Origin: a virus
Lineage: Duplodnaviria > Caudoviricetes
IMG/VR virus record: IMGVR_UViG_3300037067_012088
Coordinates: 127,388-191,387 of that record
Length of the DNA stretch: 64,000 nucleotides
Reading direction: 5' to 3' (one strand)
Each line of letters starts with the position of its first letter. Positions within the stretch are counted from its first letter, which is position 1. The notes under the pieces were generated by a model that was not told where the DNA came from, made no database searches, and saw only the letters and a program-made list of their open reading frames with translations. This document shows, one piece after another, positions 23,115 through 44,896 of the stretch. The translations under genes were made by a program, and so were the position numbers.

Positions 23115-23346
23115 GACAACACCTCCACCAGTTCGCGAGCATGAACGATAAGCTTGTCTCCCCTACGATGCAGGCGCGCCGCAGGAGGACGCCATGTCTT
23201 ACCCAGTTGGTCCATGAAGTCTTCGGTCAGGACGATCTTGAAGTCGCCACCTTCGACGGGGTTCTCAATCACGGCACCCAAAGCCTGTCCTTCGATGCCG
23301 CCCGCAAAGCGAACGCACACCTTGTCTCCTATCTTGGGATTAGGCT

Positions 23347-29882: not shown

Positions 29883-30029
29883 TCCTCATCCTCCTCTATC
29901 TCCTGCATGAAGTGGGCTTCGATGGCGTCCTCCAGCTTGAGACCACAATCCATACAGTAGGTCTCGGAATAGGGACCATCGGATACCCATGAGTGGTCGT
30001 CGAGAGAAGGGCAGATGCGTTTGGGCATG

Positions 30030-30644
30030 TTAGTCGCAGTAGTCCTGTTGCACCACTTCCCTGCTCGGCCAAAGCATCGCAGTCAGCTTCCCATATCCCG
30101 GATACGCCGCTCCCGTGTCGATCATCGCAAAGGTCTCGGTGACGCGAGGCTCCTTCTCCTTGTTGTGCCCCAGAATACGGTATAGTCCGTCCTTGGGATA
30201 GGAGTAGTCGCGACACCACAGGGCGTCTTGAATCGAGTGTTGGGATTCGGATGTGATTAACCCGTGGCCCGTATGGGATATCAGAAGGTCGGGATACTCA
30301 GGCGGGATGATATGAAGAGGAAGGGCCTTCATCCACATCACGACCTCGCGGGGAACGCGCCCGTGCCACGACTTGATGGTCTTGGTGCCGCCGTTCTGCT
30401 TCCACGTGCCCGGGATATACTCCATACCCGAAGTATAGTGGTCAACAAGAAGGTGCTCATGATTCCCCATAACGCACTGGACGCGATTCTTCATCACCCA
30501 CTCAACAACGCTGCGACTGTCGGGGCCGCGATCCACGAGGTCACCAAGAAGGATTGGCGTATGGTCTGGATAACGGGTGACCAGCGCGAACAGGGTCTTG
30601 GCCGCGCCATGAATGTCGCCTATGACGATAAGGGGTTTACTCAT
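30030..30644 (-). CDS. Ser/Thr protein phosphatase (PPP, lambda-PP/ApaH-like)
   Basis: GDIHG, GDLVDRG, GNHE and IDTGA motifs. Confidence 0.9.
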   Translation of the reverse strand: MSKPLIVIGDIHGAAKTLFALVTRYPDHTPILLGDLVDRGPDSRSVVEWVMKNRVQCVMGNHEHLLVDHYTSGMEYIPGTWKQNGGTKTIKSWHGRVPREVVMWMKALPLHIIPPEYPDLLISHTGHGLITSESQHSIQDALWCRDYSYPKDGLYRILGHNKEKEPRVTETFAMIDTGAAYPGYGKLTAMLWPSREVVQQDYCD

Positions 30645-30648
30645 CCTC

Positions 30649-32297
<1,649 letters not shown>

Positions 32298-33796: not shown

Positions 33797-34192
33797 GCGG
33801 TTTCCTTCAGCACGACGCGCAGGAACTCGTTCTCCTCGATAATCGCCTTGCGGTAACCCTCGTTCTCGGACATGTCGGCGACTGGCAAGCCAAGGGTCTT
33901 GGCGGCACCGGGGGTCTGCGCGAGATAGGTTTCGTTGTGGGCGAGACGCTGCTTCAGCATGCGGATAAGGAGGGGTGCTTTGATCATGAGAGGGGACTTT
34001 TGGCGTGACGCATATGTTGCCCGTTAGGACAGATGCAGTAATTGAGGCGACCCGCTCTGATGCCTGCGGGCGAGATGGCTGTCAGACGGGTATCGATAAT
34101 CCCGGTATTCCCACATAGGGTGCAAAGACCCAGTCCGCCGGCCGGATAGTAGGCGAACCAATAGTCGGTAACCTTAGCGCACTTGGGCTTAG

Positions 34193-35326: not shown

Positions 35327-35355
35327 AATATGGAAGGCTTGATGCTGGAGGTCAA
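35327..35355 (-). promoter_or_regulatory. class I promoter TTGACC-N8-CAAG-N5-CATATT
   Basis: Recurrent motif; ATG 6 nt downstream. Confidence 0.7.
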
Positions 35356-37466
35356 GCCGGAATCAGCGTCTTGAGGTTGTCGAGCGTATAGAACGTGCCC
35401 GTCAGCTTCTCTGGCCGGTCAAGGCCGATATAGGTCACGTCACGCGCAGGGGCCTTGTCAACCGAGTAGGTCTTCTTGGCCTTCTTGCGGTATAGGTCGG
35501 TCAACCGACCCATGGTCAGATACTGGCGAGCAATCATCGTCTGCGCGAGGAGAGCAGTCGAGAAACGATTCTGCTCAACCCGGTTACCCCACGGCATACC
35601 CTTGGAGTAGATATCGAGCCACTTAGCTTGCCAGCCATTCTCGCCCTTCATGAACACCATGGGAACACCCACACCATTCTTGTCGCCGCGCAGGGCAAAC
35701 TTGGTCTGGACACTCTTGGCCTCGAAAGGCGCGCCCCTGTTGGATTCCTTGCGCATCATGAAGCCCATAAAGGCCTCCTTACAGGTCGCGAACGGTTCAC
35801 CCGAGTATGCGTTGATGGTCGGGAGCAAATAGACGATGTCAGAGGATAACTGGTTGAGCCGCACATCGATGAACTCGGTCGCGCCGTTGGTCGCGTCCGT
35901 GATATCACCCGAGTGGGTAATAGCACCCGTGCGGAGATGGGTGAATGAAACCTGACCTTTGAACTCAAAGTCCTCATCGAACATGGCGACGGACAGGTCG
36001 TAATCAGTCCGCTCACTGGTCTGATGCCAGTAGATGAAGAACCGCAGAATGTCTTGGGTGTTGTCGAGGGGCAGCACCGATCCGCGAGGAAGCACACGAA
36101 AGCCCTCGCTCTTGGTCTTGTCGGAGAGCGGCACAGCGACTGTTGAGATATCGTCATTGATGACCAGAGTCTCGACGGCGGGAACTCGCTTCTCGATCTC
36201 CTTCCAGATGACGTTCGACAGCGTCTTGATGCGCTTAGGAGACAGGGTATCGACCTTGTTCTCGGTCACATAGCCCTTGCCGGCGCGGTTCACGAAGATG
36301 CGTGAGGCGGGCTTACTGGCGCGATTGTCGAGGTGCTCAGCGAGACTCAGGAGCACACGGCCAGACACGCGACCAACCGTGTCCTTGAGACCAGCGGTGA
36401 CCTTGGTGAACTGAATATCGGTGGCATCCCGGGCCAGCTTGTCGATAGAGCGGACGAAGTAGCCCGGCTTGTCGACGAGGAGATTGACCGCCTTGGTGAC
36501 GCGACCGTTGGACACGGCATCATGGACCTTGGAACCCCACGTGATGTGGTCGGAATTACCGCCCGCGAAATCGAACAGTGCGATGGCCCCTGCAAACTTG
36601 AACTCGCGCGGATGGAGGGATCGAGCCAGCCGCTTGAATCGCTCGCGGTAACGATTGATATCGTCTACCTTATCGGCGACGCCGTTCAGCGCGGCGAGGA
36701 GTTGGCGGCGGATAGGGCGAGAGAAACTCTTGAACTTGGTGTTTTCGAGGAGGGTCACATCACCACCAGACAGGTAGGCAGCAAGACGGAGCACATCAAC
36801 AGGGGTATCCACATCGAGAGGTTGGCCACCCTTCGTGAGACGCAGGGCGTTGATAATAGCCTTGTTCTCTCGGACGGCAATCTTGATATCGGTCACTTCG
36901 TAATCGATATACAGGGCGGCGATGAGCTTTCGGTCATCCTCGTTAAGAGGTATCTTGGAGCCAGCTAGGTCAACGTAAAGCGCCTCAAGCTCCTGACGGA
37001 GTGAGCCACCAAGATTGAGCACCTTCAGCTTGGTCTTGCCGCGCCACGTATCATGGCCCGCGAGCATGTCCTCGTAGATATGCTGGTAGGTCCCGTAGGT
37101 GGCGAAATCGAGCAGGTTGGTAGTTAACTCACCCGTCTCCTCAAAATGCTGCGCGAGAAGGCCACCCCAGAACTCAAGCGTGTCGGGCACATTCTTGGGG
37201 AAGTCCTTGAAGTAGGTATTGTGCTTGACGTGTGCGCCGACCAGTCCCTTGACGGCGGTCAAGATGACGTTGGACACTTCGATGGCTGATTCGAAGGAGG
37301 CACCACCGATGGCCTTGAGTAGCTTACTCGACAGCTTGAAGCCGTTGTCCATCAGGACTGAATCAAGTTGGCGCGCGATAACACGGGAGTCACCCGCGCC
37401 GGCCGGGACCGGAACGACGAGGCGCTTCTGAATGAGCTTGATGACGAGGTGGGTTTGGGTGTTCAT
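35352..37466 (-). CDS. large helical protein with C-terminal TerD domain (possible Ro60/TROVE-like RNA-binding protein)
   Basis: C-terminal TDYDLS..., HSGDITDA.NGATEFIDV and N.YSG..F TerD motifs; about 450-aa alpha-helical N-terminal region with PG.F.R.ID.L.R. Confidence 0.75.
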   Translation of the reverse strand: MNTQTHLVIKLIQKRLVVPVPAGAGDSRVIARQLDSVLMDNGFKLSSKLLKAIGGASFESAIEVSNVILTAVKGLVGAHVKHNTYFKDFPKNVPDTLEFWGGLLAQHFEETGELTTNLLDFATYGTYQHIYEDMLAGHDTWRGKTKLKVLNLGGSLRQELEALYVDLAGSKIPLNEDDRKLIAALYIDYEVTDIKIAVRENKAIINALRLTKGGQPLDVDTPVDVLRLAAYLSGGDVTLLENTKFKSFSRPIRRQLLAALNGVADKVDDINRYRERFKRLARSLHPREFKFAGAIALFDFAGGNSDHITWGSKVHDAVSNGRVTKAVNLLVDKPGYFVRSIDKLARDATDIQFTKVTAGLKDTVGRVSGRVLLSLAEHLDNRASKPASRIFVNRAGKGYVTENKVDTLSPKRIKTLSNVIWKEIEKRVPAVETLVINDDISTVAVPLSDKTKSEGFRVLPRGSVLPLDNTQDILRFFIYWHQTSERTDYDLSVAMFDEDFEFKGQVSFTHLRTGAITHSGDITDATNGATEFIDVRLNQLSSDIVYLLPTINAYSGEPFATCKEAFMGFMMRKESNRGAPFEAKSVQTKFALRGDKNGVGVPMVFMKGENGWQAKWLDIYSKGMPWGNRVEQNRFSTALLAQTMIARQYLTMGRLTDLYRKKAKKTYSVDKAPARDVTYIGLDRPEKLTGTFYTLDNLKTLIPA

Positions 37467-37474
37467 AGATTAAG

Positions 37475-37534
37475 TCGCGGGAGGCACCGATTCTAGGGTT
37501 GCAAAGATAGAAGGAAGAATCGATATGGCCGCGA
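37475..37534 (-). ncRNA. structured repeat RNA, unit 3 (gene-proximal)
   Basis: Closing stem UCGCGG/CCGCGA, inner stem CGAUUC/GAAUCG, CUUCCUUCUA core. Confidence 0.7.
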
Positions 37535-37551
37535 AAGGGTTTGGAAAGGGG

Positions 37552-37626
37552 TCTCCGGTAGGCGCGCAACCTAATATGCAATCCGCCGAAGCGGGTTTAG
37601 AAGGAAGGTCGAGCATGAGCCGGAGA
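37552..37626 (-). ncRNA. structured repeat RNA, unit 2
   Basis: Closing stem UCUCCGG/CCGGAGA, CUUCCUUCUA core, extra UUCG hairpin. Confidence 0.7.
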
Positions 37627-37631
37627 TTATC

Positions 37632-37698
37632 GTGACGGAAGGCGAGATAGCTAGGTTCAGGTAAAGAGTAGAAGGAAGCGGTATCTCATGGCCGTCAC
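37632..37698 (-). ncRNA. structured repeat RNA, unit 1
   Basis: Closing stem GUGACGG/CCGUCAC, inner stem GAGAUA/UAUCUC, CUUCCUUCUA core. Confidence 0.7.
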
Positions 37699-37789
37699 AA
37701 AGTGGAGACTCGTGCGCCGGAGCTTTCCCGGCGCGGAGTAACGAGTCGCAAGAGGATGAAAAGAACAGTGACCTTAATCACTGGAATCG

Positions 37790-37818
37790 ATTGTGCGGGA
37801 CTTGGGGCGACAAGTCAA
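37790..37818 (-). promoter_or_regulatory. class I promoter TTGACT-N8-CAAG-N5-CACAAT, followed by boxA-like GTTCTTT
   Basis: Recurrent motif; positioned to drive the repeat RNAs and the TerD gene. Confidence 0.7.
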
Positions 37819-37839
37819 CACTAAATCGCAAGCGATTTC

Positions 37840-38472
37840 TCAGTTCACGAAATGAAGCTGGCTCGGATGCCTGACATCATTGGCCGTGAGCACTACCTTG
37901 GTGGGCTTGGGCTTCTTGAGCTTGATGTCCCACCCCATCTCGGCAAAGGTGCGCGTTCCCTGAAGTCGATTGAGATCAAGTCTTAACGGAGCGATATTGT
38001 CCCAGTTGCGCCGCCCGCCGTGATGGCGCGCTACGTTATGCCCCATGTCCAACTCCTCGGGCGAAAGACGCTGCTTGGTCGCCTGACAGGTATAGTCGTA
38101 GAGCTTCTTGACGTTGTCGGACGAGAAACGCGGCACCTTGGATGGGATGTCAGCATAAGACGAGGCCACGATGATGGTGGGCAACCGAATCTCGCCGCGC
38201 CCCGTGGTGATGCCCCAGTCGCAGGACCTGACCGGGAGCGTAATCCAAGTGTCGATATCGACCGGGCGCGCGCTAATCAGGACATCGAGATTGTAGGTGC
38301 CGTCTGCATTCTGCTCGAAATCGAGATCGAGCGGCAGGAAGGGCGGCTTACCGGTCTCGGGATTGGCGGAGAAAATATCCTCAAGCGATTTCTTTGGACT
38401 GCGCACATCATAAGCGAACCAGTTCTTGTTAAGAGCCAATACGGTAACGGATTTGTTGAGGATATCAGACAT
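37840..38472 (-). CDS. HNH endonuclease-like protein at the 3' end of the tRNA array
   Basis: VLALNKNW N-terminus; LP.II; LDMGH..ARHHGG..NWDN.......N..QG (degenerate HNH). Confidence 0.7.
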   Translation of the reverse strand: MSDILNKSVTVLALNKNWFAYDVRSPKKSLEDIFSANPETGKPPFLPLDLDFEQNADGTYNLDVLISARPVDIDTWITLPVRSCDWGITTGRGEIRLPTIIVASSYADIPSKVPRFSSDNVKKLYDYTCQATKQRLSPEELDMGHNVARHHGGRRNWDNIAPLRLDLNRLQGTRTFAEMGWDIKLKKPKPTKVVLTANDVRHPSQLHFVN

Positions 38473-38546
38473 GGGAAAGGGAGGTTGAGAACATAACGAG
38501 TTGGGCAAGCCCAGTGGGGGACCTATGCTAGGGTCAAGGGGGAAAA

Positions 38547-38640
38547 TGGACGAGAGAGCGAGATTTGAACTCGCGAACCGGGATGAACCGATTTCTTGCT
38601 TAGCATGCAAGCGCTTTAGGCCAGACTCAGCCATCTCTCG
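38547..38640 (-). tRNA. tRNA-Ser(GCU)
   Basis: Cloverleaf; CUUGC-AU GCU AA-GCAAG; long variable arm; CCA. Confidence 0.85.
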
Positions 38641-38730
38641 GGCGGATAGCAGAGGGCACGATCCCCAGCCGATTTAACGACCCCTTGTTTTCAAGACAAG
38701 TCCCCGCCCATCGCAGGTGCTTTACTATCC
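38641..38730 (-). tRNA. tRNA-Ser(UGA)
   Basis: CUUGU-CU UGA AA-ACAAG; long variable arm. Confidence 0.8.
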
Positions 38731-38734
38731 AAAG

Positions 38735-38814
38735 TGGTGCGAACGAGAGGGGATGATCCTCCATGTGTCCAATTACCCTTTCGCCGGTTTAGGAAACCGA
38801 GGGGATACGTCCGC
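38735..38814 (-). tRNA. non-canonical tRNA-Arg(CCU) with no D-arm before the anticodon arm
   Basis: 7-bp acceptor + ACCA; UCGGU-UU CCU AA-ACCGG; AUCCC/GGGU helix encloses the anticodon arm. Confidence 0.65.
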
Positions 38815-38815
38815 G

Positions 38816-38891
38816 TGGTAGGAGTGGCCGGGTTCTCGCCGACCCTAAGGCGTCCGAAGCGCCCTGTGCGAATACAATACACTACACTCCC
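38816..38891 (-). tRNA. tRNA-Arg(UCG)
   Basis: GGGCG-CU UCG GA-CGCCU; CCA. Confidence 0.8.
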
Positions 38892-38897
38892 ATAAAG

Positions 38898-38971
38898 CAC
38901 CCGTCCTCAGGTTCGAACTGAGACTAATGAGAGGTAGAAGCTCTCGTGACTTTCCAATTGCCGAGACGGGT
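38898..38971 (-). tRNA. tRNA-Arg(UCU)
   Basis: GAGAG-CU UCU AC-CUCUC; canonical T-loop; no CCA. Confidence 0.85.
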
Positions 38972-38975
38972 AAAG

Positions 38976-39051
38976 TGGCGCATGTGGAGGAAGTCGAATC
39001 CTCAACCTCTCGATTCGTAATCGAGCGCTCATCCAGTTGAGCTTCACACGC
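38976..39051 (-). tRNA. tRNA-Arg(ACG)
   Basis: CUCGA-UU ACG AA-UCGAG; CCA. Confidence 0.9.
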
Positions 39052-39055
39052 AAAT

Positions 39056-39130
39056 TGGGGTAAGTAGCGAATTCTGCCATCGCGTTCTGCGCGCCACAAG
39101 CGCATGTCTTCCTTCTAGACGATACCTACC
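39056..39130 (-). tRNA. tRNA-His(GUG)
   Basis: G-1:C73; UGCGC-UU GUG GC-GCGCA; CCA. Confidence 0.85.
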
Positions 39131-39138
39131 ATGAAATG

Positions 39139-39221
39139 AGCAGTAAGAGGGACTCGCACCCCCGATGAGCTTTCGCTGCGTGCTTACAAAACACGTCCTG
39201 TCGCTTCTGAGGCATTACTGC
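39139..39221 (-). tRNA. tRNA-Thr(UGU) with long variable arm
   Basis: CGUGU-UU UGU AA-GCACG; extra arm AGC-GAAA-GCU. Confidence 0.75.
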
Positions 39222-39229
39222 ATGAAATG

Positions 39230-39298
39230 AGCCAACTGCCGGTGCGGCCCCGGCTTCCTACTCATTACGGGTGAGTGGGGATTGCTGAATCAGTTGGC
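39230..39298 (-). tRNA. tRNA-Thr(CGU) with truncated D-arm
   Basis: ACUCA-CC CGU AA-UGAGU. Confidence 0.7.
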
Positions 39299-39299
39299 A

Positions 39300-39390
39300 T
39301 GGTCGTCCCGCTCGGTGCTGCCCCGAGTCACGGCCCAAATCTAGGACACAAGGAGGTATAAGCTCCTCAGGGAGGCTGCTCCACGAGACG
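39300..39390 (-). tRNA. non-canonical tRNA-Ile(UAU)
   Basis: GAGGAG-CU UAU AC-CUCCUU; mini D hairpin; long extra arm; ACCA. Confidence 0.65.
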
Positions 39391-39396
39391 ACAAAA

Positions 39397-39487
39397 TGGT
39401 GCAAGAGGTGGGCCACGATCCCACACGGGGCTTTCGCCACCCAACGATTTTGAATCGTCGCTGTATGCCAATTCCAAGCACTCTTGC
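39397..39487 (-). tRNA. tRNA-Leu(CAA)
   Basis: GACGA-UU CAA AA-UCGUU; long variable arm; CCA. Confidence 0.85.
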
Positions 39488-39493
39488 GTAAAA

Positions 39494-39578
39494 TCGACGC
39501 GGTGGGGTATGCTCCCACAATCCCTCTCGGGCCAACAGGTTTAAGCTGCTGCTGTATTCTGGTTCCAAGCACGCGTCG
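39494..39578 (-). tRNA. tRNA-Leu(UAA)
   Basis: AGCAG-CU UAA AC-CUGUU; long variable arm. Confidence 0.8.
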
Positions 39579-39583
39579 GAAAT

Positions 39584-39658
39584 TGGCGGCCCCACGGAGA
39601 GTTTCGCTCGCGATGTCCAACTTGAGAGGTTGGCAGACTAATCTTATCTGATGGGGCC
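39584..39658 (-). tRNA. tRNA-Glu(CUC)
   Basis: CCAAC-CU CUC AA-GUUGG; irregular T-stem; CCA. Confidence 0.75.
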
Positions 39659-39660
39659 AT

Positions 39661-39744
39661 TGCGTTCGGTGGGCAACGATCCCACATGAGCTTTCGCCCC
39701 TTGGTTTCTAAGACCAAGCTGTAAGCCAATTCCAGCACGAACGC
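39661..39744 (-). tRNA. tRNA-Leu(UAG)
   Basis: UUGGU-CU UAG AA-ACCAA; long variable arm. Confidence 0.85.
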
Positions 39745-39750
39745 GTAAAA

Positions 39751-39833
39751 TGGTGGGAGCGGCGAGCCACGACCTCGCAATCCTTGCGGCGGCAGACTCT
39801 CGATCTGCTGGGTATACATTCCCCCACGCTCCC
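39751..39833 (-). tRNA. tRNA-Leu(GAG)
   Basis: GCAGA-UC GAG AG-UCUGC (C33); CCA. Confidence 0.8.
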
Positions 39834-39835
39834 CT

Positions 39836-39908
39836 AGCCTGAGACGGGGCTCGAACCCGTTACCCTCCCCTTACCAAGGGGTAATTCAACCACATGAACT
39901 TCACAGGC
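39836..39908 (-). tRNA. tRNA-Thr(GGU)
   Basis: CCCC-UU GGU AA-GGGG; canonical T-loop. Confidence 0.8.
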
Positions 39909-39912
39909 AAAA

Positions 39913-39985
39913 TGGAAGTAGATCCCGGTGCTGCCCCGGGCTAGTGGTCCTTATGAGAGACTACTGATCGGCTGGATCATCTACC
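39913..39985 (-). tRNA. tRNA-Met/Ile2(CAU) with short D-arm
   Basis: GUCU-CU CAU AA-GGAC; CCA. Confidence 0.7.
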
Positions 39986-39986
39986 G

Positions 39987-40061
39987 TGGTGGTCCCGTAG
40001 GAAATCGCATCCTCCTCATCCGATTAAGAGTCGGAGTCCTCGCTATCTAGGAGTCGAGACC
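39987..40061 (-). tRNA. tRNA-Lys(CUU)
   Basis: UCCGA-CU CUU AA-UCGGA; CCA. Confidence 0.8.
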
Positions 40062-40068
40062 ATAAAAT

Positions 40069-40140
40069 CTGCCCCACCCCGATTTGCACGAGGACCTAAC
40101 ACTTTCAGAGAGTGTCGGACTGCTATTATCCCATGAGGCA
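40069..40140 (-). tRNA. tRNA-Gln(CUG)
   Basis: ACACU-CU CUG AA-AGUGU; U1-A72. Confidence 0.8.
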
Positions 40141-40149
40141 TCAACAAAG

Positions 40150-40234
40150 CCGGGGCGACACGGTTCGAACGTGCAAAGTCTTGCGACCGGTAGGGTCAAA
40201 GCCTACTGCGTTTATCCAGTTCCGCCACACCCCA
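40150..40234 (-). tRNA. tRNA-Gln(UUG) with long variable arm
   Basis: GUAGG-CU UUG AC-CCUAC; extra arm GGUC-GCAA-GACU; Leu/Ser-like D-arm. Confidence 0.8.
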
Positions 40235-40242
40235 AAAATCGC

Positions 40243-40890
40243 TCAACACGGCACCGGCGTCCATCCCTCAAACACGACCCGCACCACGCCGCCCGGTGAA
40301 CTCGCGGGTCTCTGCACATTGCAGATGGGTGAATCATTGGCATACTCAGGATGGGTTCCTACGCACTCGGGGGGCGAAACTGACGCCGTGCAGTTGTCGC
40401 ATCCATATGGATAGACGCCGACCAAATCCGTGTTCTCATATCGCGTGCTGTTGCGTATCTTCTTCACCGCAATCACGCCGCCGTTTGCGGTCCAGTCGTC
40501 CGAACTCAAATCAAACCCGAGATAAGCATTCGCACCGCAAACGCAGCTGATGTCTACCGTCTCCTGTCCGCCTGATTGGAATCCGTTGTTGAGGATAAAC
40601 TCGGCCAGCGCGACGCCCTCGGGCCAATCGGGACACGGGCAATTCAGAGGAGGAGTGCCAAAGGAGAGGTTACCGTTGAAGCCCAGTCCCGCAGGAGCGT
40701 CAATCGAGACCGTCGTGGTCGCCGGTAAAGTGAAGTTGCCCATGAGCGGGTAGAGCTTGTTGATGACGATGCCGTCACTGACTGTGATATCGGATACGTC
40801 TTGCACGCAACCGGGCGTGGCGCCAAGAGTGATGTAAGCGAGAACGGGGGAAGCGGAGTTGTTGCGGAGAGCGAGTTTGGTGGTAGGCAT
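40243..40890 (-). CDS. thaumatin-like (PR-5 fold) Cys-rich protein
   Basis: GVALAEFILNN....ETVDISCVCGAN resembles the thaumatin TLAEFTL...YDVSLVDG.N signature; about 10 Cys. Confidence 0.6.
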   Translation of the reverse strand: MPTTKLALRNNSASPVLAYITLGATPGCVQDVSDITVSDGIVINKLYPLMGNFTLPATTTVSIDAPAGLGFNGNLSFGTPPLNCPCPDWPEGVALAEFILNNGFQSGGQETVDISCVCGANAYLGFDLSSDDWTANGGVIAVKKIRNSTRYENTDLVGVYPYGCDNCTASVSPPECVGTHPEYANDSPICNVQRPASSPGGVVRVVFEGWTPVPC

Positions 40891-40895
40891 AGTAG

Positions 40896-40906
40896 AGGAT
40901 ACACCG
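40896..40906 (-). promoter_or_regulatory. class II promoter-like motif CGGTGTATCCT
   Basis: 5 nt upstream of the ATG; shared GGTGTAT core. Confidence 0.45.
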
Positions 40907-40957
40907 GGAAGAAGCCCCCTTCCTCTCTGTAACACAAATCGTTGACACTCAACAAAA

Positions 40958-41033
40958 TGGCTGCCGCCCACAGGATCGAACTGTGCTCATCGGATTAACA
41001 GTCCGACCGGGTCTCCCTGACTCGCTGACGGCA
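40958..41033 (-). tRNA. tRNA-Asn(GUU)
   Basis: UCGGA-CU GUU AA-UCCGA; CCA. Confidence 0.85.
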
Positions 41034-41039
41034 ATAAAG

Positions 41040-41117
41040 TGGTGGAAAAGGCTGGCTTCGATCCAGCGACCTTCGTGGTGTAGGCACGTTGCTCTAACCT
41101 GACTGAGCTACTTTTCC
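41040..41117 (-). tRNA. tRNA-Val(UAC)
   Basis: CGUG-CC UAC AC-CACG; CCA. Confidence 0.85.
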
Positions 41118-41118
41118 A

Positions 41119-41193
41119 TGGCGGTGCTACGGAGTATCGCGCTCCGATCACGAGATCGACAATCTCGCGCTCTCCTACTTGAGCTATAGCACC
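41119..41193 (-). tRNA. tRNA-Asp(GUC)
   Basis: CGAGA-UU GUC GA-UCUCG; CCA. Confidence 0.85.
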
Positions 41194-41199
41194 AAAGTG

Positions 41200-41281
41200 T
41201 CCGAGCGACACGACTTGCACGTGCAGAGGTTGCCCACTGAGTCCCAAACTCAGCCCGCTCCTATTTACGGTATACGCTCGG
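41200..41281 (-). tRNA. tRNA-Pro(UGG) with enlarged variable arm
   Basis: CUGAG-UU UGG GA-CUCAG; C1-G72, A73. Confidence 0.75.
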
Positions 41282-41299
41282 ATAGCGCTAACTAAACTG

Positions 41300-41370
41300 A
41301 TGCAGAGGTGGGATTTGCACGCCACTAACGGCGACGGGTATGAGCCGCGCTTGGTTCTAACCTCCCTGCG
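41300..41370 (-). tRNA. initiator-type tRNA-Met(CAU) with minimal D-arm
   Basis: C1:A72 mismatch; GCGG-CU CAU AC-CCGU. Confidence 0.7.
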
Positions 41371-41375
41371 TAAAA

Positions 41376-41454
41376 TGGCCCTGACTCCCGTGGCTTGCAC
41401 CGGGCACCTCCGAGTCTTCAGCTCGGCGCTCTACATCTAATGAGCTAAGTCAGG
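41376..41454 (-). tRNA. tRNA-Phe(GAA)
   Basis: CCGAG-CU GAA GA-CUCGG; CCA. Confidence 0.8.
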
Positions 41455-41455
41455 A

Positions 41456-41596
41456 TGAAGAGGCCTTTCACCTCATGGGTCGCTTTGGGCGACTCTGCCT
41501 CTCTGGGATGGTGACTCCGTGTCAGTCATTCATCTTGGGAGGACCTTGCTTGAGATATCCCACTCGTTTGACACGACGGTCAGGAGATATCTTAAA
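41456..41596 (-). ncRNA. unassigned structured RNA between tRNA-Trp and tRNA-Phe
   Basis: Several nested hairpins in a 141-nt spacer; most other spacers are under 10 nt. Confidence 0.45.
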
Positions 41597-41671
41597 TGGC
41601 CCCGGGTGCTGGGAGCGCGCCAGCCCGACAACTTTTGGAGAGTCGTCCGAACACTAGATCGTCTACCCGGG
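41597..41671 (-). tRNA. tRNA-Trp(CCA)
   Basis: CGACU-CU CCA AA-AGUUG; G73; CCA. Confidence 0.8.
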
Positions 41672-41676
41672 AAAAT

Positions 41677-41747
41677 TCCTCCTATCTGGTGCTGCCCCAG
41701 AGTCTCACGCCTATCAAGCGCGCTATCTACTGTTGATATATAGGAGG
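41677..41747 (-). tRNA. tRNA-Ile(GAU)
   Basis: CGCGC-UU GAU AG-GCGUG; acceptor CCUCCUA/UAGGAGG. Confidence 0.8.
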
Positions 41748-41753
41748 GTAAAA

Positions 41754-41842
41754 TGGGGGAGCCCGCTGGAATCGCGCCAGTTGCTAGCTTCTCGTCTTTG
41801 GGTTAGCGGTGAGGTTACAACTCACTGACGAGGACGGTCTCC
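41754..41842 (-). tRNA. non-canonical tRNA-Tyr(GUA) with no D-arm before the anticodon arm
   Basis: GUGAG-UU GUA AC-CUCAC enclosed by a CUCGUC/GACGAG helix; T-arm; CCA. Confidence 0.65.
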
Positions 41843-41844
41843 AT

Positions 41845-41918
41845 TGCACCATGAGAGACGTGCGCTCTCCCCTCCGAGGTGGAAGCTCGGCATGCTCGCT
41901 ATTGGACACTAATGGTGC
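41845..41918 (-). tRNA. tRNA-Gly(UCC)
   Basis: CCGAG-CU UCC AC-CUCGG. Confidence 0.8.
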
Positions 41919-41924
41919 GAAAAT

Positions 41925-41996
41925 TGGAGGATGCCGTAATCGAAACGGCGACTGTCGGGTGCAGGCCGACCGTGTTACCACTAGCACCAATCCCCC
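41925..41996 (-). tRNA. tRNA-Ala(UGC)
   Basis: G3:U70; GUCGG-CC UGC AC-CCGAC. Confidence 0.85.
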
Positions 41997-42003
41997 TGAA
42001 AAA

Positions 42004-42079
42004 TGGACACGCGTGTGGAACTCGAATCCACGACCTAGTGCTTTGCAGACACCGCTCTTAGCCGCTTGAGTAACGCGTG
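42004..42079 (-). tRNA. tRNA-Cys(GCA)
   Basis: GGUGU-CU GCA AA-GCACU; U73; CCA. Confidence 0.9.
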
Positions 42080-42088
42080 AGGTGAAAA

Positions 42089-42164
42089 TGGTGGTCCCAG
42101 CGGAAGTCGAATCCGCAACTCGCGACTTAAAAGGACGCTACTCTACCAATTGAGTTATGAGACC
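42089..42164 (-). tRNA. tRNA-Lys(UUU)
   Basis: Canonical D and T arms; CU UUU AA loop; CCA. Confidence 0.9.
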
Positions 42165-42171
42165 GTAAAAT

Positions 42172-42243
42172 CGCCCGCACGGAGAATCGAACTCCGGTTT
42201 CAACCTTGAAAGGGTTTTGTCACTACCACTAGACGATGCGGGC
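42172..42243 (-). tRNA. tRNA-Glu(UUC)
   Basis: AACC-CU UUC AA-GGUU; canonical T-loop. Confidence 0.9.
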
Positions 42244-42250
42244 ACAAATA

Positions 42251-42386
42251 TGCGGGAGGTTGGTTCGGGTTCTCGTGGCCTACGATTCCCGGCTCACGGT
42301 GGTTCCTCCCCCACCGACCGGGTTTACGTTATCCCGGTAACGTCCAGCCTCACTGGATAGAATGGCGGCCCGTTGACTTACCCGCG
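42251..42386 (-). ncRNA. multi-hairpin structured RNA, unassigned
   Basis: Closing GCGGG/CCCGC; internal stems UCCAG/CUGGA, CGUUA/UAACG, CGGUGG/CCACCG. Confidence 0.45.
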
Positions 42387-42495
42387 CTTTGGAGGCTTGG
42401 GTCCCCTCTGGTTGGAAACCCCACACGGGCCAAGGTGGGTTAGGGCGGAGGGTATTGTATTTGACATGGTGCCGGACTGATCCGGTCCAAATGAA

Positions 42496-42615
42496 TTGCG
42501 GGTCAGGCTTGATTCTGACTATGGCATACTGCGGAGTCGAACCGACAGAGGCATTCCCGGCTGCCACGCCACCTCTCTGCTTTCAGTATCGCGTGTCCAA
42601 TCCACGCCGCCGCAA
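42496..42615 (-). ncRNA. tRNA-elbow-like ncRNA, copy B
   Basis: 5' GCGGCGUGGAUUGGACACG ... 3' AGUCAGAAUCAAGCCUGACC, shared with 43497-43653. Confidence 0.65.
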
Positions 42616-42829
42616 ATTGAATCACTCGGTGGCTCGGGGAACACCACTACTTGGCCTAGGGGCCGTGCTTTTTGCACCCGATAGCCCTAATCACAATGTC
42701 AGGGCCTACATAAGCTACGAGCAGAGTGAATCCCTCAAGACAGTTGCCATCGCTGGCCTCGCAGTGCATCCCGAGTCGCCTCGGGGGCGTCCAGATTGGT
42801 TACTGGATATCCTGTTCCATATTGGGAAT

Positions 42830-42947
42830 TGGTCGCTCTCAAGGATTTTCACCTCATCTCGGCTTTATCGGTGCCTCGCTTTCGGGTCCTCGTGAACCGG
42901 GCCGTTCATGACACGAGTCACTACTTGGCTCCTTAAGCTATCGAGCG
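42830..42947 (-). ncRNA. CCA-ended tRNA-like RNA with a large insert replacing the anticodon arm
   Basis: CGCUC/GAGCG + ACCA; UAGCUUAAGGAGC D-like arm; GAGG-UGAAAAU-CCUU T-like arm. Confidence 0.5.
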
Positions 42948-42953
42948 GTAAAT

Positions 42954-43049
42954 TGGTCCGGGCGGAGACTTTAGATCCCTCTCTCGGCTACACCCACACA
43001 CGGTTCCTCTAGAGTCTTGTGTGTGGTATCTGGCCTGCTTCTTGCCCGA
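42954..43049 (-). ncRNA. CCA-ended tRNA-like RNA with a long central helix
   Basis: UCGGGC/GCCCGG + ACCA; CCACACAC/GUGUGUGG stem. Confidence 0.45.
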
Positions 43050-43302
43050 CAAAAGTGTCCGAGGCGCACGCCCTCGGGCGCCCGCGTTTACGGGGTTGAC
43101 CGAAATGAATCACCGTCGTCCGAACTACGACATATCGGACTCTTGTATCCCATTTGTAACTGTCAGCGCTGGGAGGTTGTGGCATGTCCGCTGCCCCTTA
43201 CTTGAACACCCCGAGCTTGCGACCCCGGGTGGTCTTTCGACCCATCGCTAAACGAGTCAATTTGTGGGACGGACTAACGGTAAAGTGAAAGAACTGATAC
43301 CC

Positions 43303-43331
43303 ATCTTGCTCGACTTGGGTTCCAACGTCAA
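43303..43331 (-). promoter_or_regulatory. class I promoter TTGACG-N8-CAAG-N5-CAAGAT, followed by boxA-like GTTCTTT
   Basis: Recurrent motif; internal promoter of the RNA operon. Confidence 0.7.
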
Positions 43332-43496
43332 GCGAAATCTGTGCCCACCCGGGAGCGTCCGATTCTTTGGACAACTCAACCGGGTGGGTCTTAACGAACT
43401 AACTACCTCATCTTAGCGTCCGCGCGGGCTTGAGCCCGACTTGCATATCATCTACTAGCCTCTACCCTAGCATCCCGGCATGTGGTCCGGGAAAGT

Positions 43497-43653
43497 GATG
43501 GGGAAGACCGGATTTGATTCCGACTCTGTGCTTCCTGACGGGCTCGACCCGCATGGCCCAACGTGATGCTGCTAACTCACGCCGCTATGCACAAACGCGG
43601 TTGGGTTGTTGCGCCTGCCCCGAAACGTGTCCTTCCACGCCGCTTCCTCCATC
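43497..43653 (-). ncRNA. tRNA-elbow-like ncRNA, copy A
   Basis: 5' GCGGCGUGGAAGGACACG ... 3' AGUCGGAAUCAAAUCCGGUC; closing GAUGG-AGGAAG/CUUCC-CCAUC. Confidence 0.65.
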
Positions 43654-43860
43654 AAGGTCATAAAGTGATTAAGCTGGCCGCGAGCGTTAGCTCATCGGTT
43701 ACGCCGTTTAGGGCCGCCAGCTTTGGTGAGGGATACTCACCGTATTTCCTCTCAAACCGTCGATGTCTCCACCAACGTAAAGTCGCACCGAGTTAGCGGG
43801 GCCGTGCTCGCCCTGTTCCTGCCTACTTGATATGCCGCCGGGGTCATTGGCGGTTTTCGT

Positions 43861-43874
43861 TATGTCAAAGATCG
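43861..43874 (-). promoter_or_regulatory. boxA-like antitermination element CGATCTTTGACATA
   Basis: Resembles boxA of stable-RNA operon leaders; sits at the head of the ncRNA cluster. Confidence 0.45.
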
Positions 43875-43981
43875 TCTCCGAAATCGGGGGTTCGGCATTT
43901 AAGCCTACTGACCTCTGGAGAAAGTGTAATCATTCTGCTGTATGTCCTCGAAACCACCTTAGAAACGGTGTATTCTAAGAC

Positions 43982-44506
43982 ATGGAATGTCGTATTTGTC
44001 ACGAAGAAAAAGAACTCACTGAATTCAAGAAAAAGTCGGGAGGATATGACACGATATGCAAGGTTTGCTATGCTCCCTTGAACAGGGAATACAATCGTCA
44101 ATACCACAAAACGTTCAAGGGGTGGATAAGAGTTTCTTGGTCGAGAATGAACATCCGTGCTGGAAATCGGGGTAATAAATATCCAACCTATACTCATGTA
44201 AAGGTCTTAATGACCAGAGAAGAATTTGTAGCGTGGGCTCAACCCCAAGAGCCAATATGGCGCGGTATTAAAGAATCTAATGATTCCCCAACCATCGACA
44301 GAATAGACCCTGATGGACACTATGAAATATCGAACATTCAGATCCTAAGCCTACGAGAAAATTCCTCCAGAAACACCGGAAGACATCTGCGAACTCCTGA
44401 GGCTCTGGTTAGACACATAGTGGCTATGGCCAAAAAACTAAACATTTCACTATCTACCGTAGCAGAATTGATTATCAAAGAACAAGTGGATTGCTCCACA
44501 AAATGA
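43982..44506 (+). mobile_element. free-standing HNH homing endonuclease gene
   Basis: CRIC..K....F...CKVC zinc finger; PTIDRIDPDGHYEISNIQ....EN..N; AT-rich and on the opposite strand. Confidence 0.8.
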
Positions 44507-44540
44507 TAAGGCCGACCTCGTTTTTGGGAGAGCCGGCCTA
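44500..44540 (-). terminator. attenuator/terminator hairpin
   Basis: AGGCCGGCUCUC...GAGGUCGGCCU followed by UAUCAUUUU; may also terminate the convergent HNH gene. Confidence 0.6.
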
Positions 44541-44565
44541 AGGTTAACTAACTGACTTAAATCCC

Positions 44566-44694
44566 TTAGATGGGCTCTCCTGTTTGGGTTTCGGGATTAC
44601 GTCCAAACCACATGGACACGCAATACCGTAAACCCGCGACTTGCGCTTTGGCGCTTGTCAGGATATCTGATATTGGATGAATGGATCTGGACAT
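44566..44694 (-). CDS. putative 42-aa attenuator leader peptide
   Basis: MSRSIHPISDILTSAKAQVAGLRYCVSMWFGRNPETQTGEPI; GGAGAGCC in its last codons is complementary to the terminator 5' arm. Confidence 0.55.
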   Translation of the reverse strand: MSRSIHPISDILTSAKAQVAGLRYCVSMWFGRNPETQTGEPI

Positions 44695-44712
44695 GGAAGA
44701 GAGGGAAGGGGG

Positions 44713-44838
44713 TTAGAGAACTAGGCCTAGGATTAGGCCACCTAATCCCGCAGCAACAACCCAAACGGCGCTAACTTGCTTGGCCTTGAGGGTGGCATAG
44801 ACGGCGGAAATGGAGGCTTTGATGGATGAGGTGGACAT
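44713..44838 (-). CDS. 41-aa single-TM peptide
   Basis: MSTSSIKASISAVYATLKAKQVSAVWVVAAGLGGLILGLVL, read by hand. Confidence 0.5.
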   Translation of the reverse strand: MSTSSIKASISAVYATLKAKQVSAVWVVAAGLGGLILGLVL

Positions 44839-44859
44839 GATGGAAAGGTGGTTCAAGAG

Positions 44860-44886
44860 ACGATACACCGGAAACGAGGGCGTTTA
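44860..44886 (-). promoter_or_regulatory. class II promoter-like motif TAAACG-N5-GTTT-N-CGGTGTAT
   Basis: Near-identical to the dps upstream motif. Confidence 0.55.
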
Positions 44887-44896
44887 CCAATGAATC

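What the first reader, a model, noticed from the sequence alone, without database searches (positions are those of the whole stretch)
35352..44886. Integrated hypothesis: a translation-stress RNA restoration island
Seen together on one strand: sensor leader and attenuator, boxA-like sites, tRNA-mimic ncRNAs, a full tRNA set with atypical loops, and a TerD/TROVE-like protein with its own repeat RNAs. Elsewhere in the window are Rnl1, Pnk, phosphoesterases and two nucleotidyltransferases. Inference: a coordinated counter-defence that senses, decoys, replaces and repairs damaged tRNA.
Basis: inference. Interest (0 to 1): 0.8.

Follow-up and report, generated by a model that had tools for sequence, protein, structure and literature searches.

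The report
Phage tRNA operon with Ro60-like particle
A large phage carries about 34 tRNA genes, many with a rebuilt "elbow", next to a Ro60-shaped protein and three copies of its own small RNA. This protein-RNA pair recurs in many phages and actinobacteria, but the proposed "sensing" leader is not supported.

Summary
Most listed components exist; the integrated "sense-decoy-replace-repair island" is only partly supported.

**Confirmed**
- A minus-strand array of about 34 tRNA genes (38547-42244) covers all 20 amino acids. Met and Tyr rest on weaker calls. About half have non-canonical T-loops.
- The 704-aa protein has a TerD C-terminal domain. Its helical part best matches Ro60 structures, with no sequence-level TROVE match.
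- Three tandem ~70-nt RNAs lie just upstream of it.
- Rnl1-like, kinase, RlaP and Metallophos genes lie 5-14 kb away.

**New here**
- A covariance model of the RNA finds it beside this protein family in about half of 84 viral loci and in 78 of 80 actinobacterial loci, on the gene's strand. It has no Rfam match. This looks like a Ro60/Y-RNA-like particle with TerD in place of vWA.
- In phages the gene lies within 2 kb of same-strand tRNA genes in 45 of 84 loci.
- T-loop U55C56 co-varies with D-loop GG (p = 4e-8), so the odd loops are a concerted change, not decay.

**Not supported**
- The leader/attenuator is not conserved and its "all 20 amino acids" property fits chance.
- The boxA-like sites are only weakly enriched.
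- The repair genes are dispersed.

This scan already found the same protein-RNA pair in at least 7 other genomes.

The parts
44910..44937 (-). Sigma-70-like promoter TTGACA-16-TATGAT (11 of 12 matches)
44862..44888 (-). Phage-type promoter-like motif GGTAAAC-N11-CGGTGTATC. CGGTGTAT occurs 18 times on the minus strand genome-wide, often after terminator-like hairpins.
44713..44838 (-). Small ORF of 41 aa with a hydrophobic C-terminus. It has no homologue in the related loci.
44566..44694 (-). It contains all 20 amino acids and is not conserved.
44509..44539 (.). Hairpin AGGCCG...CGGCCT between convergent genes, followed by a short T-run. GGAGAGCC (44573-44580) can pair with GGCUCUCC (44527-44534).
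44476..44499 (-). Hairpin GTGGAGCAATCCAC followed by TGTTCTTTG (boxA-like). It lies antisense to the 3' end of the HNH gene.
43982..44506 (+). HNH / endonuclease VII-like gene on the opposite strand, in the region with the window's lowest GC. Probably a mobile homing endonuclease.
   Evidence: phrog_1035, E 5.7e-17
42245..43869 (-). ORF-free stretch with no Rfam, DNA or protein match. Folding z-scores are -3.4 (5' half) and -1.2 (3' half). It holds a tRNA-like minihelix at 42367-42431, followed by GCCA, that is conserved in L004.
38547..42244 (-). Array of about 34 tRNA genes. Many are separated by CCA-TTTT spacers. Gene order matches the array of related phage L006. About half have the non-canonical elbow.
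40243..40890 (-). Cys-rich ORF of 215 aa inside the array, preceded by a CCGGTGTATC motif. It matches no family and is absent from the related loci.
37840..38472 (-). 210-aa gene conserved between the array and the RNA modules. It is 47% identical in L005 and 33% in L006/L007, where the called product carries weak HNH hits.
37790..37818 (-). Promoter-like TTGACT-17-CACAAT, conserved in L005.
37760..37783 (-). Hairpin CAGTGATTAAGGTCACTG followed by TGTTCTTT (boxA-like). The exact motif sits at the same place in L006, and within one mismatch in L004 and L005.
37631..37699 (-). RNA module 1: outer helix, CCAU, inner helix, CUUCCUUCUA ... CCUAG apical region, inner helix, GCCUU, outer helix.
   Evidence: 62.3 bits
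37552..37626 (-). RNA module 2, a more divergent copy (CUCAU instead of CCAU).
   Evidence: 52.9 bits
37474..37535 (-). RNA module 3. It ends 7 nt before the start codon of the protein gene.
   Evidence: 59 bits
35352..37466 (-). 704-aa protein P0001. Its N-terminal helical-repeat part is Ro60-like, followed by a TerD beta-sandwich (about residues 466-641) and C-terminal helices. It matches NCBIfam NF041916 but lacks the RING domain.
28947..30680 (-). RlaP-family nucleotidyltransferase (28947-29882) and Metallophos phosphoesterase (30030-30680).
21452..23802 (-). Rnl1-like RNA ligase (21452-22570) and AAA_33 P-loop kinase (23347-23802).

Best explanation
The stretch is one co-oriented block of a ~191-kb phage. 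It makes (a) a near-complete private tRNA set and (b) a Ro60-like ribonucleoprotein.

Shown:
- About 34 tRNA genes lie in one array. Roughly half carry a concerted change of the D-loop/T-loop elbow: GG with U55C56 is replaced by AG with G55C56.
- Downstream lie a conserved HNH-like gene, a promoter, and three tandem copies of a ~70-nt two-helix RNA with invariant loop nucleotides.
- Next comes the gene for a protein with a Ro60-like helical part and a TerD domain where Ro60 has vWA.
- The RNA and the protein gene are a conserved pair in phages and in Actinomycetota.
- In phages the pair usually sits in or beside same-strand tRNA arrays.

Inferred:
- The protein binds the conserved internal loop ('handle') of the RNA, as Ro60 binds Y RNA.
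- The particle acts on structured RNAs made from the same operon. Quality control or protection of the phage tRNAs, or tethering of a host exoribonuclease, are the likeliest roles.
- The phage tRNAs replace host tRNAs lost to tRNA-targeting defences.
- The Rnl1, kinase, phosphoesterase and RlaP genes elsewhere are the usual dispersed jumbo-phage RNA-repair kit.
- The promoter-proximal small ORFs and hairpin are ordinary lineage-specific genes and a terminator between convergent genes, not a sensor.
For: tRNA array and elbow:
- Array.
- Gene order is shared with L006.
- In the window plus L006, U55C56 goes with GG in the D-loop in 18 of 19 tRNAs, against 7 of 37 for other T-loops (Fisher p = 3.6e-8). 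C56 is kept in 25 of 27 and 22 of 29. Three other phage arrays are canonical.

Protein:
- Model pLDDT is 87.
- TerD fold: Z 17.1. Ro60 chains 1yvp, 9l5y and 2nvo score Z 10.7-11.5 over 303-317 residues and are the best non-TerD matches among 48,161 chains. They are again ranks 1-2 for the N-terminal domain alone.

RNA:
- 12 modules from 4 phages give a covariation score of 0.73, against 0.21 in shuffles (0 of 500 as high) and at most 0.23 when partners are slid.
- 78 homologues are 91.5% paired with score 0.87.
- 135 of 136 viral hits are on the gene's strand, most within about 0.7 kb of the gene.
- 78 of 80 actinobacterial loci have a hit directly after the stop codon.
- In whole genomes there are 3 hits in this phage, all here. 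Four of five 6-14 Mb actinobacterial genomes gave 5 hits in all, and the fifth gave none. Each hit lies 17-320 nt downstream of a family gene.
- No Rfam family matches.

tRNA linkage:
- 55 of 84 viral loci have a tRNA within the held flank, and 45 within 2 kb, nearly all on the same strand.
- 34 of 37 large records carry tRNAs.

Precedent: Thermus phage phiLo Ro60 has two Y-like RNAs directly upstream of its gene (PMC12135203). Bacterial YrlA RNAs lie within 4 kb of Ro60 on the same strand (PMC4201824).
Against: - There is no sequence-level TROVE signal.
- The domain-only Z of 8.7-8.9 barely exceeds that of generic HEAT proteins (8.1, 7.7). Ro60 homology is therefore not established.
- The RNA has no YrlA hallmark, neither the tRNA-like domain nor the GNCGAA motif, in this window.
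- No binding or expression data exist.
- The RNA always lies directly next to the gene and on its strand, which also fits a cis-regulatory element.
- Counts over viral loci include near-identical contigs, and no matched control set of phages without the family was available.
- The alignment behind one search was fitted to the model's structure.
Confidence: 0.6

Rival explanations
1. One reading: one coordinated system in which a leader peptide and attenuator sense the tRNA pool, boxA sites enforce read-through, tRNA mimics act as decoys, the tRNA set replaces damaged tRNAs, and the Ro-like particle plus ligase, kinase and phosphoesterases repair them.
For: - All parts are on one strand of one region.
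- Hairpin-plus-TGTTCTTT elements sit at the head of two ORF-free stretches here and of a third elsewhere in the genome.
- The RNP gene and tRNA arrays are linked across phages.
- Rnl1 is present in 20 and RlaP in 21 of the 37 other large records that carry the family.
Against: - The leader ORFs have no homologue in L004 or L006.
- The all-20-amino-acid property occurs in 2 of 204 comparable ORFs.
- An opposite-strand gene and 1.6 kb lie between the 'attenuator' and the first tRNA.
- TGTTCTTT is only about 2-fold enriched. Upstream of the RNA modules it is exact in 3 of 48 sources.
- Repair genes lie from about 5 kb to more than 50 kb from the RNP gene (5-59 kb in the six records checked), with no conserved order.
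- Rnl1 and RlaP presence are only weakly associated with each other (14 both, 6 and 7 singly, 10 neither).
Confidence: 0.1
2. The ~70-nt modules are cis-regulatory elements of the protein's own mRNA rather than separate partner RNAs. Examples would be autoregulatory binding sites, stabilisers or processing signals.
For: - The modules are always on the gene's strand and immediately adjacent to it.
- Module 3 ends 7 nt before the ATG, with no Shine-Dalgarno sequence between.
- In bacteria the RNA starts 17-26 nt after the stop codon.
Against: - The position switches between 5' and 3' of the gene, and copy number varies from 1 to 3 or more.
- In some phages copies lie about 10 kb or further from the gene, near tRNA genes (records G006, G007 and G036).
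- Loop nucleotides are invariant across GC contents of 23-71%. This suggests a specific macromolecular partner.
- This rival is compatible with protein binding, so it is not exclusive of the best explanation.
Confidence: 0.2
3. Nothing is functionally linked. The tRNA array only supplements codon usage. The TerD protein is a stand-alone Ter-type stress or superinfection-exclusion protein. Adjacency reflects shared placement in the auxiliary-gene region of related phages. The odd tRNAs are decaying copies.
For: - Stand-alone TerD genes in actinobacterial jumbo phages were read as Ter-system parts (PMC7824862).
- The viral loci are partly related to one another.
Against: - Adjacency persists down to 24-30% protein identity and across GC contents of 23-71%.
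- Stems are kept and the D-loop and T-loop change together, which argues against decay.
- The gene has a dedicated conserved RNA. No other conserved neighbour was found in 80 bacterial loci.
Confidence: 0.1

Closest known systems
Ro60 (Rsr, TROVE + vWA) with Y RNAs, including bacterial and phage YrlA and Thermus phage phiLo Ro60 with Yrl1/Yrl2 (PMC4201824, PMC12135203)
   Same: - The helical-repeat part gives its best structural matches to Ro60.
- It is followed by a domain from a divalent-cation-binding family.
- One to three small structured RNA genes lie on the same strand, directly beside the protein gene, in bacteria and phages.
- The RNA has a terminal stem with a conserved internal loop.
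   Different: - There is no TROVE sequence signature.
- TerD replaces vWA/MIDAS.
- The RNA has other conserved nucleotides (GGCCAUG, CUUCCUUCU, CUAG, CGCUUUCC), no tRNA-like domain in this window, and no Rfam hit.
- In bacteria the family is found mainly in Actinomycetota.
Phage tRNA arrays as replacement for host tRNAs cut by defence nucleases (PMC10264068; PMC7824862)
   Same: A large same-strand tRNA array in a big phage that covers nearly all amino acids. Some anticodon loops deviate (C33 in Ala, Val and Leu-GAG).
   Different: The main deviation here is in the elbow: T-loop position 55 and the D-loop GG change together, and the change is shared with one related phage (L006). It is not in the anticodon loop. 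I found no description of this in the library searched.
T4 Rnl1 / Pnkp tRNA repair against PrrC
   Same: An Rnl1-family ligase with a P-loop kinase 0.8 kb away, and calcineurin-type phosphoesterases in the same 10-kb region.
   Different: - Kinase and phosphatase are separate small proteins rather than one Pnkp.
- The ligase match is weak (TIGR02308 33.8 bits against a cut-off of 242).
- An RlaP nucleotidyltransferase is present.
- Activity is untested.
TerD proteins of the tellurite-resistance (Ter) stress system
   Same: The C-terminal beta-sandwich superposes on TerD structures (Z 14.9-17.1). The SGD...G..E loop is partly kept.
   Different: - The Pfam score is below the cut-off (17.9 against 25.3 bits).
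- The domain is fused to a 460-residue helical domain.
- No other Ter genes lie nearby.
- It is paired with an RNA.

Membership tests
Ro60 / TROVE proteins | TROVE domain recognisable by sequence (Pfam PF05731) | tested here: not met
   No hit at E <= 0.01. The family profile finds no Ro60 among PDB sequences at E <= 10. PF05731 gives no hit at the family gene in any of 38 records at E <= 1; its single hit, in G029, lies elsewhere.
Ro60 / TROVE proteins | HEAT-repeat ring fold like solved Ro60 structures | tested here: inconclusive
   Whole model: 1yvp Z 11.5 (309 aligned, rmsd 3.9), 9l5y Z 11.5, 2nvo Z 10.7, against at most 8.3 for unrelated HEAT proteins. Domain alone: 9l5y Z 8.9 (234 aligned) and 2nvo Z 8.7, against 8.1 and 7.7 for the next hits. 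Foldseek did not list Ro60.
Ro60 / TROVE proteins | C-terminal vWA domain with MIDAS | tested here: not met
   The C-terminal domain is a TerD beta-sandwich.
Ro60 / TROVE proteins | Partner small RNA genes within a few kb on the same strand | tested here: met
   The RNA itself is not a known Y RNA.
Y RNA / YrlA | Match to Rfam Y RNA models; GNCGAA motif and tRNA-like domain (PMC4201824) | tested here: not met
   No Rfam hit at E <= 5 in 34000-46000, none in 8 viral loci, and none in 5 bacterial loci at E <= 1. The modules have two helices and a short apical region.
TerD domain (PF02342) | TerD fold and sequence profile | tested here: met
   The fold is met: 2qz7 Z 17.1, rmsd 2.3, 156 aligned, and Foldseek E 3.6e-9 to 1.5e-6. 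The sequence is sub-threshold: 17.9 bits against a cut-off of 25.3.
NCBIfam NF041916 MXAN_6230/SCO0854 RING-domain family | Full-length match above the cut-off, including the N-terminal RING | tested here: not met
   349 bits against a cut-off of 600. The best stretch covers profile positions 380-732 of 842. No RING domain by Pfam. The protein is a RING-less relative; the ESM Atlas lists RING-bearing clusters as structural neighbours.
Leader-peptide transcription attenuator | Leader ORF enriched in regulatory codons, alternative terminator/antiterminator pairings, placed directly before the regulated genes, and conserved | tested here: not met
   An alternative 8-bp pairing exists. However, the composition fits chance (2 of 204 comparable ORFs), there is no homologue in the relatives, and the first tRNA lies 2.3 kb further on, past an opposite-strand gene.
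rrn-type boxA antitermination site | boxA-like sequence shortly after a promoter of a long untranslated transcript, conserved among relatives, and bound by NusB/NusE | tested here: inconclusive
   TGTTCTTT follows a hairpin at 37760 and 44477. There are 4 copies per strand against about 2 expected. The exact motif sits at the same place in L006 and L034, 3 of 48 sources against 0.23% of background windows. The comparison with a boxA consensus rests on my own knowledge. Binding is not testable here.
T4-type Rnl1/Pnkp repair pair | Rnl1 ligase together with a bifunctional kinase-phosphatase | tested here: inconclusive
   Rnl1-like: phrog_562 E 1.2e-31, TIGR02308 E 1.9e-8 (below its cut-off), Pfam E 1.6e-4. 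The kinase is a separate 151-aa AAA_33 protein and the phosphoesterases are separate Metallophos proteins.

The most novel reading that the evidence does not exclude
The phage runs a parallel, partly 'orthogonal' tRNA system. Its tRNAs carry a re-engineered elbow (A18/G55 instead of G18/U55), so they escape host enzymes or defence nucleases that read the canonical elbow. The co-transcribed Ro60-like/TerD particle, with its handle RNA, is the dedicated guardian of these RNAs, acting in folding control, protection or recruitment of an exonuclease. The same particle would serve structured-RNA surveillance in Actinomycetota.
Probability: 0.15. Interest if true: 0.9.

Novelty: new variant of a known kind. 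Interest (0 to 1): 0.68.

Why it matters
**A second Ro60-like particle.** If the pair is a real particle, Ro60/Y RNA is not the only ring-protein/small-RNA surveillance system in bacteria and phages. This second one has a TerD domain and a different RNA handle. At least 559 species-representative bacterial genomes, the best 80 almost all Actinomycetota, encode a relative of the protein. It also occurs in many tRNA-rich phages. That gives a genetically tractable entry (Streptomyces, Micromonospora) to what Ro-like particles do.

**Link to tRNA arrays.** Its tight placement in phage tRNA arrays ties it to tRNA supply during infection. That makes the idea of tRNA-centred counter-defence testable with defined parts.

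**Elbow switch.** The concerted D-loop/T-loop switch in two related phage tRNA sets would be a rare natural case of bacterial-type tRNAs working without the near-universal G18-U55 contact (background: PMC4810234, PMC7912444). It bears on how RNase P, modification enzymes and the ribosome read the elbow.

Tried and rejected
- **Phage records, DNA level.** Megablast of the whole stretch gave no match. Distant blastn of 42245-43869 and tblastn of its 168-aa plus-strand ORF also gave no match.
- **Solved structures by sequence.** phmmer of P0001 found none. The family profile found only a weak TerD hit.
- **ESM Atlas.** Searches by features and by shape returned only the family's own clusters, no TROVE cluster.
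- **Rfam.** No Y RNA, tmRNA or other family fell on the ORF-free regions or on the modules. ARAGORN's tmRNA mode found none.
- **Conserved bacterial neighbours.** Clustering ORFs of 80 loci found no second conserved gene.
- **Small ORFs.** tblastn of the leader ORFs, the Cys-rich protein and the 181-aa upstream protein against all loci held at that point (L001-L085) gave no hits.
- **tRNA-like units in 42245-43869.** A search for more found one convincing case plus an imperfect one near 42520-42600 that I could not classify.
- **146-nt gap between tRNA-Trp and tRNA-Phe (41455-41600).** It stays unexplained.
- **Sequencing runs.** No reads were laid.
- **Literature.** No paper in the library links TerD with Ro60/Y RNA or names SCO0854. 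Burroughs and Aravind 2016 (PMC5062991) is not held.
- **Anti-Shine-Dalgarno mimic.** I considered that the CUUCCUUCU loop mimics the 3' end of 16S rRNA. The resemblance is recalled from memory only and was not tested.

Full report
**Setting**

The window is the last 64 kb of a 191,387-bp linear IMG/VR virus record that CheckV rates 92% complete. GC is about 57% and almost all genes are on the minus strand. It holds a replication block: Pol III alpha, a DnaB-like helicase, a PHP protein and methylases. No GenBank phage record is similar at the DNA level.

**tRNA array**

- ARAGORN finds 17 tRNA genes, all on the minus strand between 38547 and 42244, and 20 at its lower threshold.
- Rfam's tRNA model passes 9 with default filters and 13 at or above its gathering score with lax filters.
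- All tRNA hits in the whole genome lie in this array.
- Many units ended with an acceptor-like stem plus CCA-TTTT yet were missed by these tools, so I wrote a sequence-blind cloverleaf scan.
  - The strict version finds 22 units, with none on the plus strand and none in five shuffles.
  - The relaxed version finds 28, with 4 on the plus strand and 0-1 in shuffles.
  - Folding of the remaining gaps and a still looser scan add about six more: two CAT units, Thr-CGT, Ser-TGA, probably Arg-CCT, and an odd 94-nt Tyr-GTA unit.
- The total is therefore about 34 units. All 20 amino acids are covered if the weaker Met and Tyr calls are accepted.
- Nine of the twelve minus-strand CCATTTT copies in the genome are spacers in this array.

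**Atypical loops**

- Only 14 of 27 scored tRNAs keep U55-C56 in the T-loop. The others mostly read xGCRAxx.
- The related phage L006 has a partner protein 53% identical and the same tRNA gene order. There the figure is 5 of 29.
- The arrays of L005, L019 and L063 are canonical.
- The change is concerted. In the window plus L006, U55C56 goes with GG in the D-loop in 18 of 19 tRNAs. Other T-loops go with GG in only 7 of 37 (Fisher p = 3.6e-8) and typically have AG instead. C56 is retained.
- Stems are intact. This is therefore a remodelled elbow, not decay.
- Reading it as a G18-Psi55 to A18-G55 switch is my inference.
- Ala-TGC, Val-TAC and Leu-GAG have C33 instead of U33.
- The importance of the elbow for RNase P, the ribosome and modification enzymes is established knowledge (PMC4810234, PMC7912444).

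**The 704-aa protein**

- Pfam gives only a sub-threshold TerD hit.
- NCBIfam places it in the MXAN_6230/SCO0854 family, at 349 bits against a cut-off of 600 and without the RING domain.
- Homologues are numerous. Phage contigs share 53-77% identity, and actinobacterial chromosomes about 42%.
- At least 81 viral stretches and at least 559 species-representative bacterial genomes encode a relative.
- An AlphaFold model built on 55 sequences has pLDDT 87 and pTM 0.83.
- Foldseek and VIA-align place residues 466-641 on TerD structures (E 3.6e-9; Z 17.1).
- The next best chains among 48,161 are the three Ro60 representatives: Xenopus 1yvp at Z 11.5, Thermus phage phiLo 9l5y at Z 11.5 and Deinococcus 2nvo at Z 10.7. 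They align over 303-317 residues. Unrelated HEAT proteins reach at most 8.3 over about 95 residues.
- The N-terminal 462 residues, modelled alone from 53 sequences (pLDDT 87), again rank phiLo Ro60 and Rsr first (Z 8.9 and 8.7; 234 and 257 aligned). The margin over generic HEAT proteins (8.1, 7.7) is small.
- No sequence method sees TROVE.
- I therefore treat "Ro60-like" as a supported resemblance, not as family membership.

**The repeat RNAs**

- The 290 nt upstream of the gene are 80% identical to L005. That is about as conserved as the protein itself, which is 75% identical at the amino-acid level.
- They hold three modules of one plan, also present three times in each of L004, L005 and L006. 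The L004 gene start had been called too far upstream.
- The plan is: outer helix, CCAU, inner helix, CUUCCUUCU..., CCUAG, inner helix, GCCUU, outer helix.
- On the 12 modules both helices co-vary. 81.9% of cells are paired against 54% in shuffles. The covariation score is 0.73 against 0.21 (0 of 500 shuffles as high) and at most 0.23 when partners are slid. 11 of 13 pairs show changes on both sides.
- A covariance model built from them gave 136 hits at E <= 1 in 1.42 Mb from 85 sources.
  - 135 hits are on the strand of the protein gene.
  - Most lie within about 0.7 kb upstream or downstream of it, often in two or three tandem copies.
  - 43 sources have hits at E <= 1e-3. These include the three large records that have no tRNAs at all.
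- In 80 actinobacterial loci, 78 have a hit that starts a few tens of nucleotides after the stop codon.
- Whole-genome searches are equally specific.
  - This phage has three hits, all here.
  - Four of five 6-14 Mb actinobacterial genomes gave five hits in all; the fifth gave none. Each hit lies 17-320 nt downstream of a family gene.
- Across 78 homologues with GC contents of 23-71%, the nucleotides GG-CCAU, CUUCCUUCU, UAG and GCU.UCC are 85-100% conserved and the helices are 91.5% paired. This alignment was fitted to the model.
- No Rfam family matches. No paper in the library links TerD proteins with such an RNA.
- The placement rule is the one used to define bacterial YrlA RNAs: within 4 kb of the gene and on the same strand (PMC4201824). 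Thermus phage phiLo has two Y-like RNAs directly upstream of its Ro60 gene (PMC12135203).
- Earlier reports of this scan reached the same reading on at least seven other genomes.

**Co-occurrence**

- Of 84 viral loci with the family, 55 hold a tRNA within the flank kept (up to 8-15 kb). 50 hold three or more, 45 have one within 2 kb and 33 within 1 kb. Nearly all are on the gene's strand.
- Some loci are near-identical contigs, so these are not independent counts.
- 34 of 37 large records have between 6 and 71 tRNA matches.
- In some phages, copies of the RNA lie about 10 kb or further from the gene, near tRNA genes (G006, G007, G036).
- By my rough estimate a random gene in such genomes would lie within 2 kb of a tRNA in under 10% of cases. 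I could not run a matched control.
- Rnl1 occurs in 20 and RlaP in 21 of the 37 other records. Distances from the RNP gene range from about 5 kb to more than 50 kb, and the order is not conserved.
- A canonical TROVE match occurs in only 1 of 38 records.
- In bacteria the gene has no other conserved neighbour.
- In summary, protein and RNA do not assort independently at all. Protein and tRNA arrays are strongly linked in phages. The repair enzymes are at most loosely linked.

**Leader, attenuator and boxA**

- A strong sigma-70-like promoter (44937-44910) and a phage-type motif (GGTAAAC-N11-CGGTGTATC) precede two small ORFs of 41 and 42 codons.
- The 42-codon ORF does contain all 20 amino acids, but so do 2 of 204 ORFs of 38-46 codons in this genome.
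- Neither small ORF has a homologue in L004 or L006.
- The hairpin at 44509-44539 lies between convergent genes. Behind it comes an HNH/endonuclease VII-like gene on the other strand. Then come 1.6 kb without an ORF, homology or Rfam match, with only moderate folding z-scores.
- TGTTCTTT occurs four times per strand against about two expected. Three of the four minus-strand copies head ORF-free stretches.
- The copy at 37760 is conserved exactly in L006 and within one mismatch in L004 and L005, but is rare elsewhere.
- An antitermination role is plausible for long untranslated transcripts but is not shown.

**Verdict**

The grand interpretation is only partly supported.

The best-supported reading is a phage tRNA operon with a remodelled-elbow tRNA set, coupled to a Ro60/Y-RNA-like particle of an undescribed type. 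The usual jumbo-phage RNA-repair genes lie nearby but are not part of one conserved system (background: PMC7824862, PMC10264068).

Noticed in passing
window 38547-42244; L006:4300-9000: Concerted tRNA elbow switch. T-loops reading xG55C56RAxx go with AG instead of GG in the D-loop in about half of this phage's tRNAs and in most tRNAs of the syntenic array of L006. Three other phage arrays are canonical (Fisher p = 3.6e-8).
   Followed up: partly
window 39140-39221 and 40151-40234: tRNA-Thr(TGT) and tRNA-Gln(TTG) carry 15-nt variable arms, a feature normally seen in class II tRNAs (Leu, Ser, Tyr).
   Followed up: no
window 40243-40890 (-): A 215-aa cysteine-rich ORF sits inside the tRNA array, with its own CCGGTGTATC motif upstream. 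It matches no family in Pfam, NCBIfam or PHROGs and is absent from the related loci.
   Followed up: partly
whole genome G000, minus strand; in the window at 44862 and 40898: The motif GGTAAAC-N11-CGGTGTATC recurs: CGGTGTAT occurs 18 times on the minus strand and 8 on the plus. Copies mostly follow terminator-like hairpins and precede genes in the structural part of the genome. It is probably a phage-specific middle or late promoter.
   Followed up: partly
window 42367-42431 and about 42520-42600 (-): Two tRNA-like minihelices lie in the 1.6-kb ORF-free stretch. The first has a 7-bp acceptor-like stem followed by GCCA, conserved in L004:7081-7162. The second has a canonical GGTTCGACTCC T-arm but no anticodon arm.
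   Followed up: partly
window 41455-41600 (-): A 146-nt structured spacer between tRNA-Trp and tRNA-Phe could not be assigned to any tRNA or family.
   Followed up: no
L004:10001-10165: The called start of the homologous gene in the Logan contig is too far upstream. The 765-aa product swallows two RNA modules. The true ATG is near 10166.
   Followed up: yes
L016:4591-4916 and 14356-14610: A related phage has a tmRNA gene and a group I intron in the tRNA region beside its Ro-like/TerD gene. RNA modules lie next to the tmRNA, at 3803-4167.
   Followed up: no
G000, about 12.9 kb before the window's start (window coordinate -12933), minus strand: A promoter-like TCGACC-17-CATTCT is followed directly by TGTTCTTTGG and, according to first-reader notes, a long ORF-free structured stretch. 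This is the same promoter/boxA-like arrangement as at 37760.
   Followed up: no
window 9634-10692, 55884-56999, 31149-32261 (-): Other genes of note are a DUF4419 protein, a DUF4326 + PHP fusion, and a 370-aa protein with a C-terminal BRCT domain whose N-terminal part has no Pfam match.
   Followed up: no
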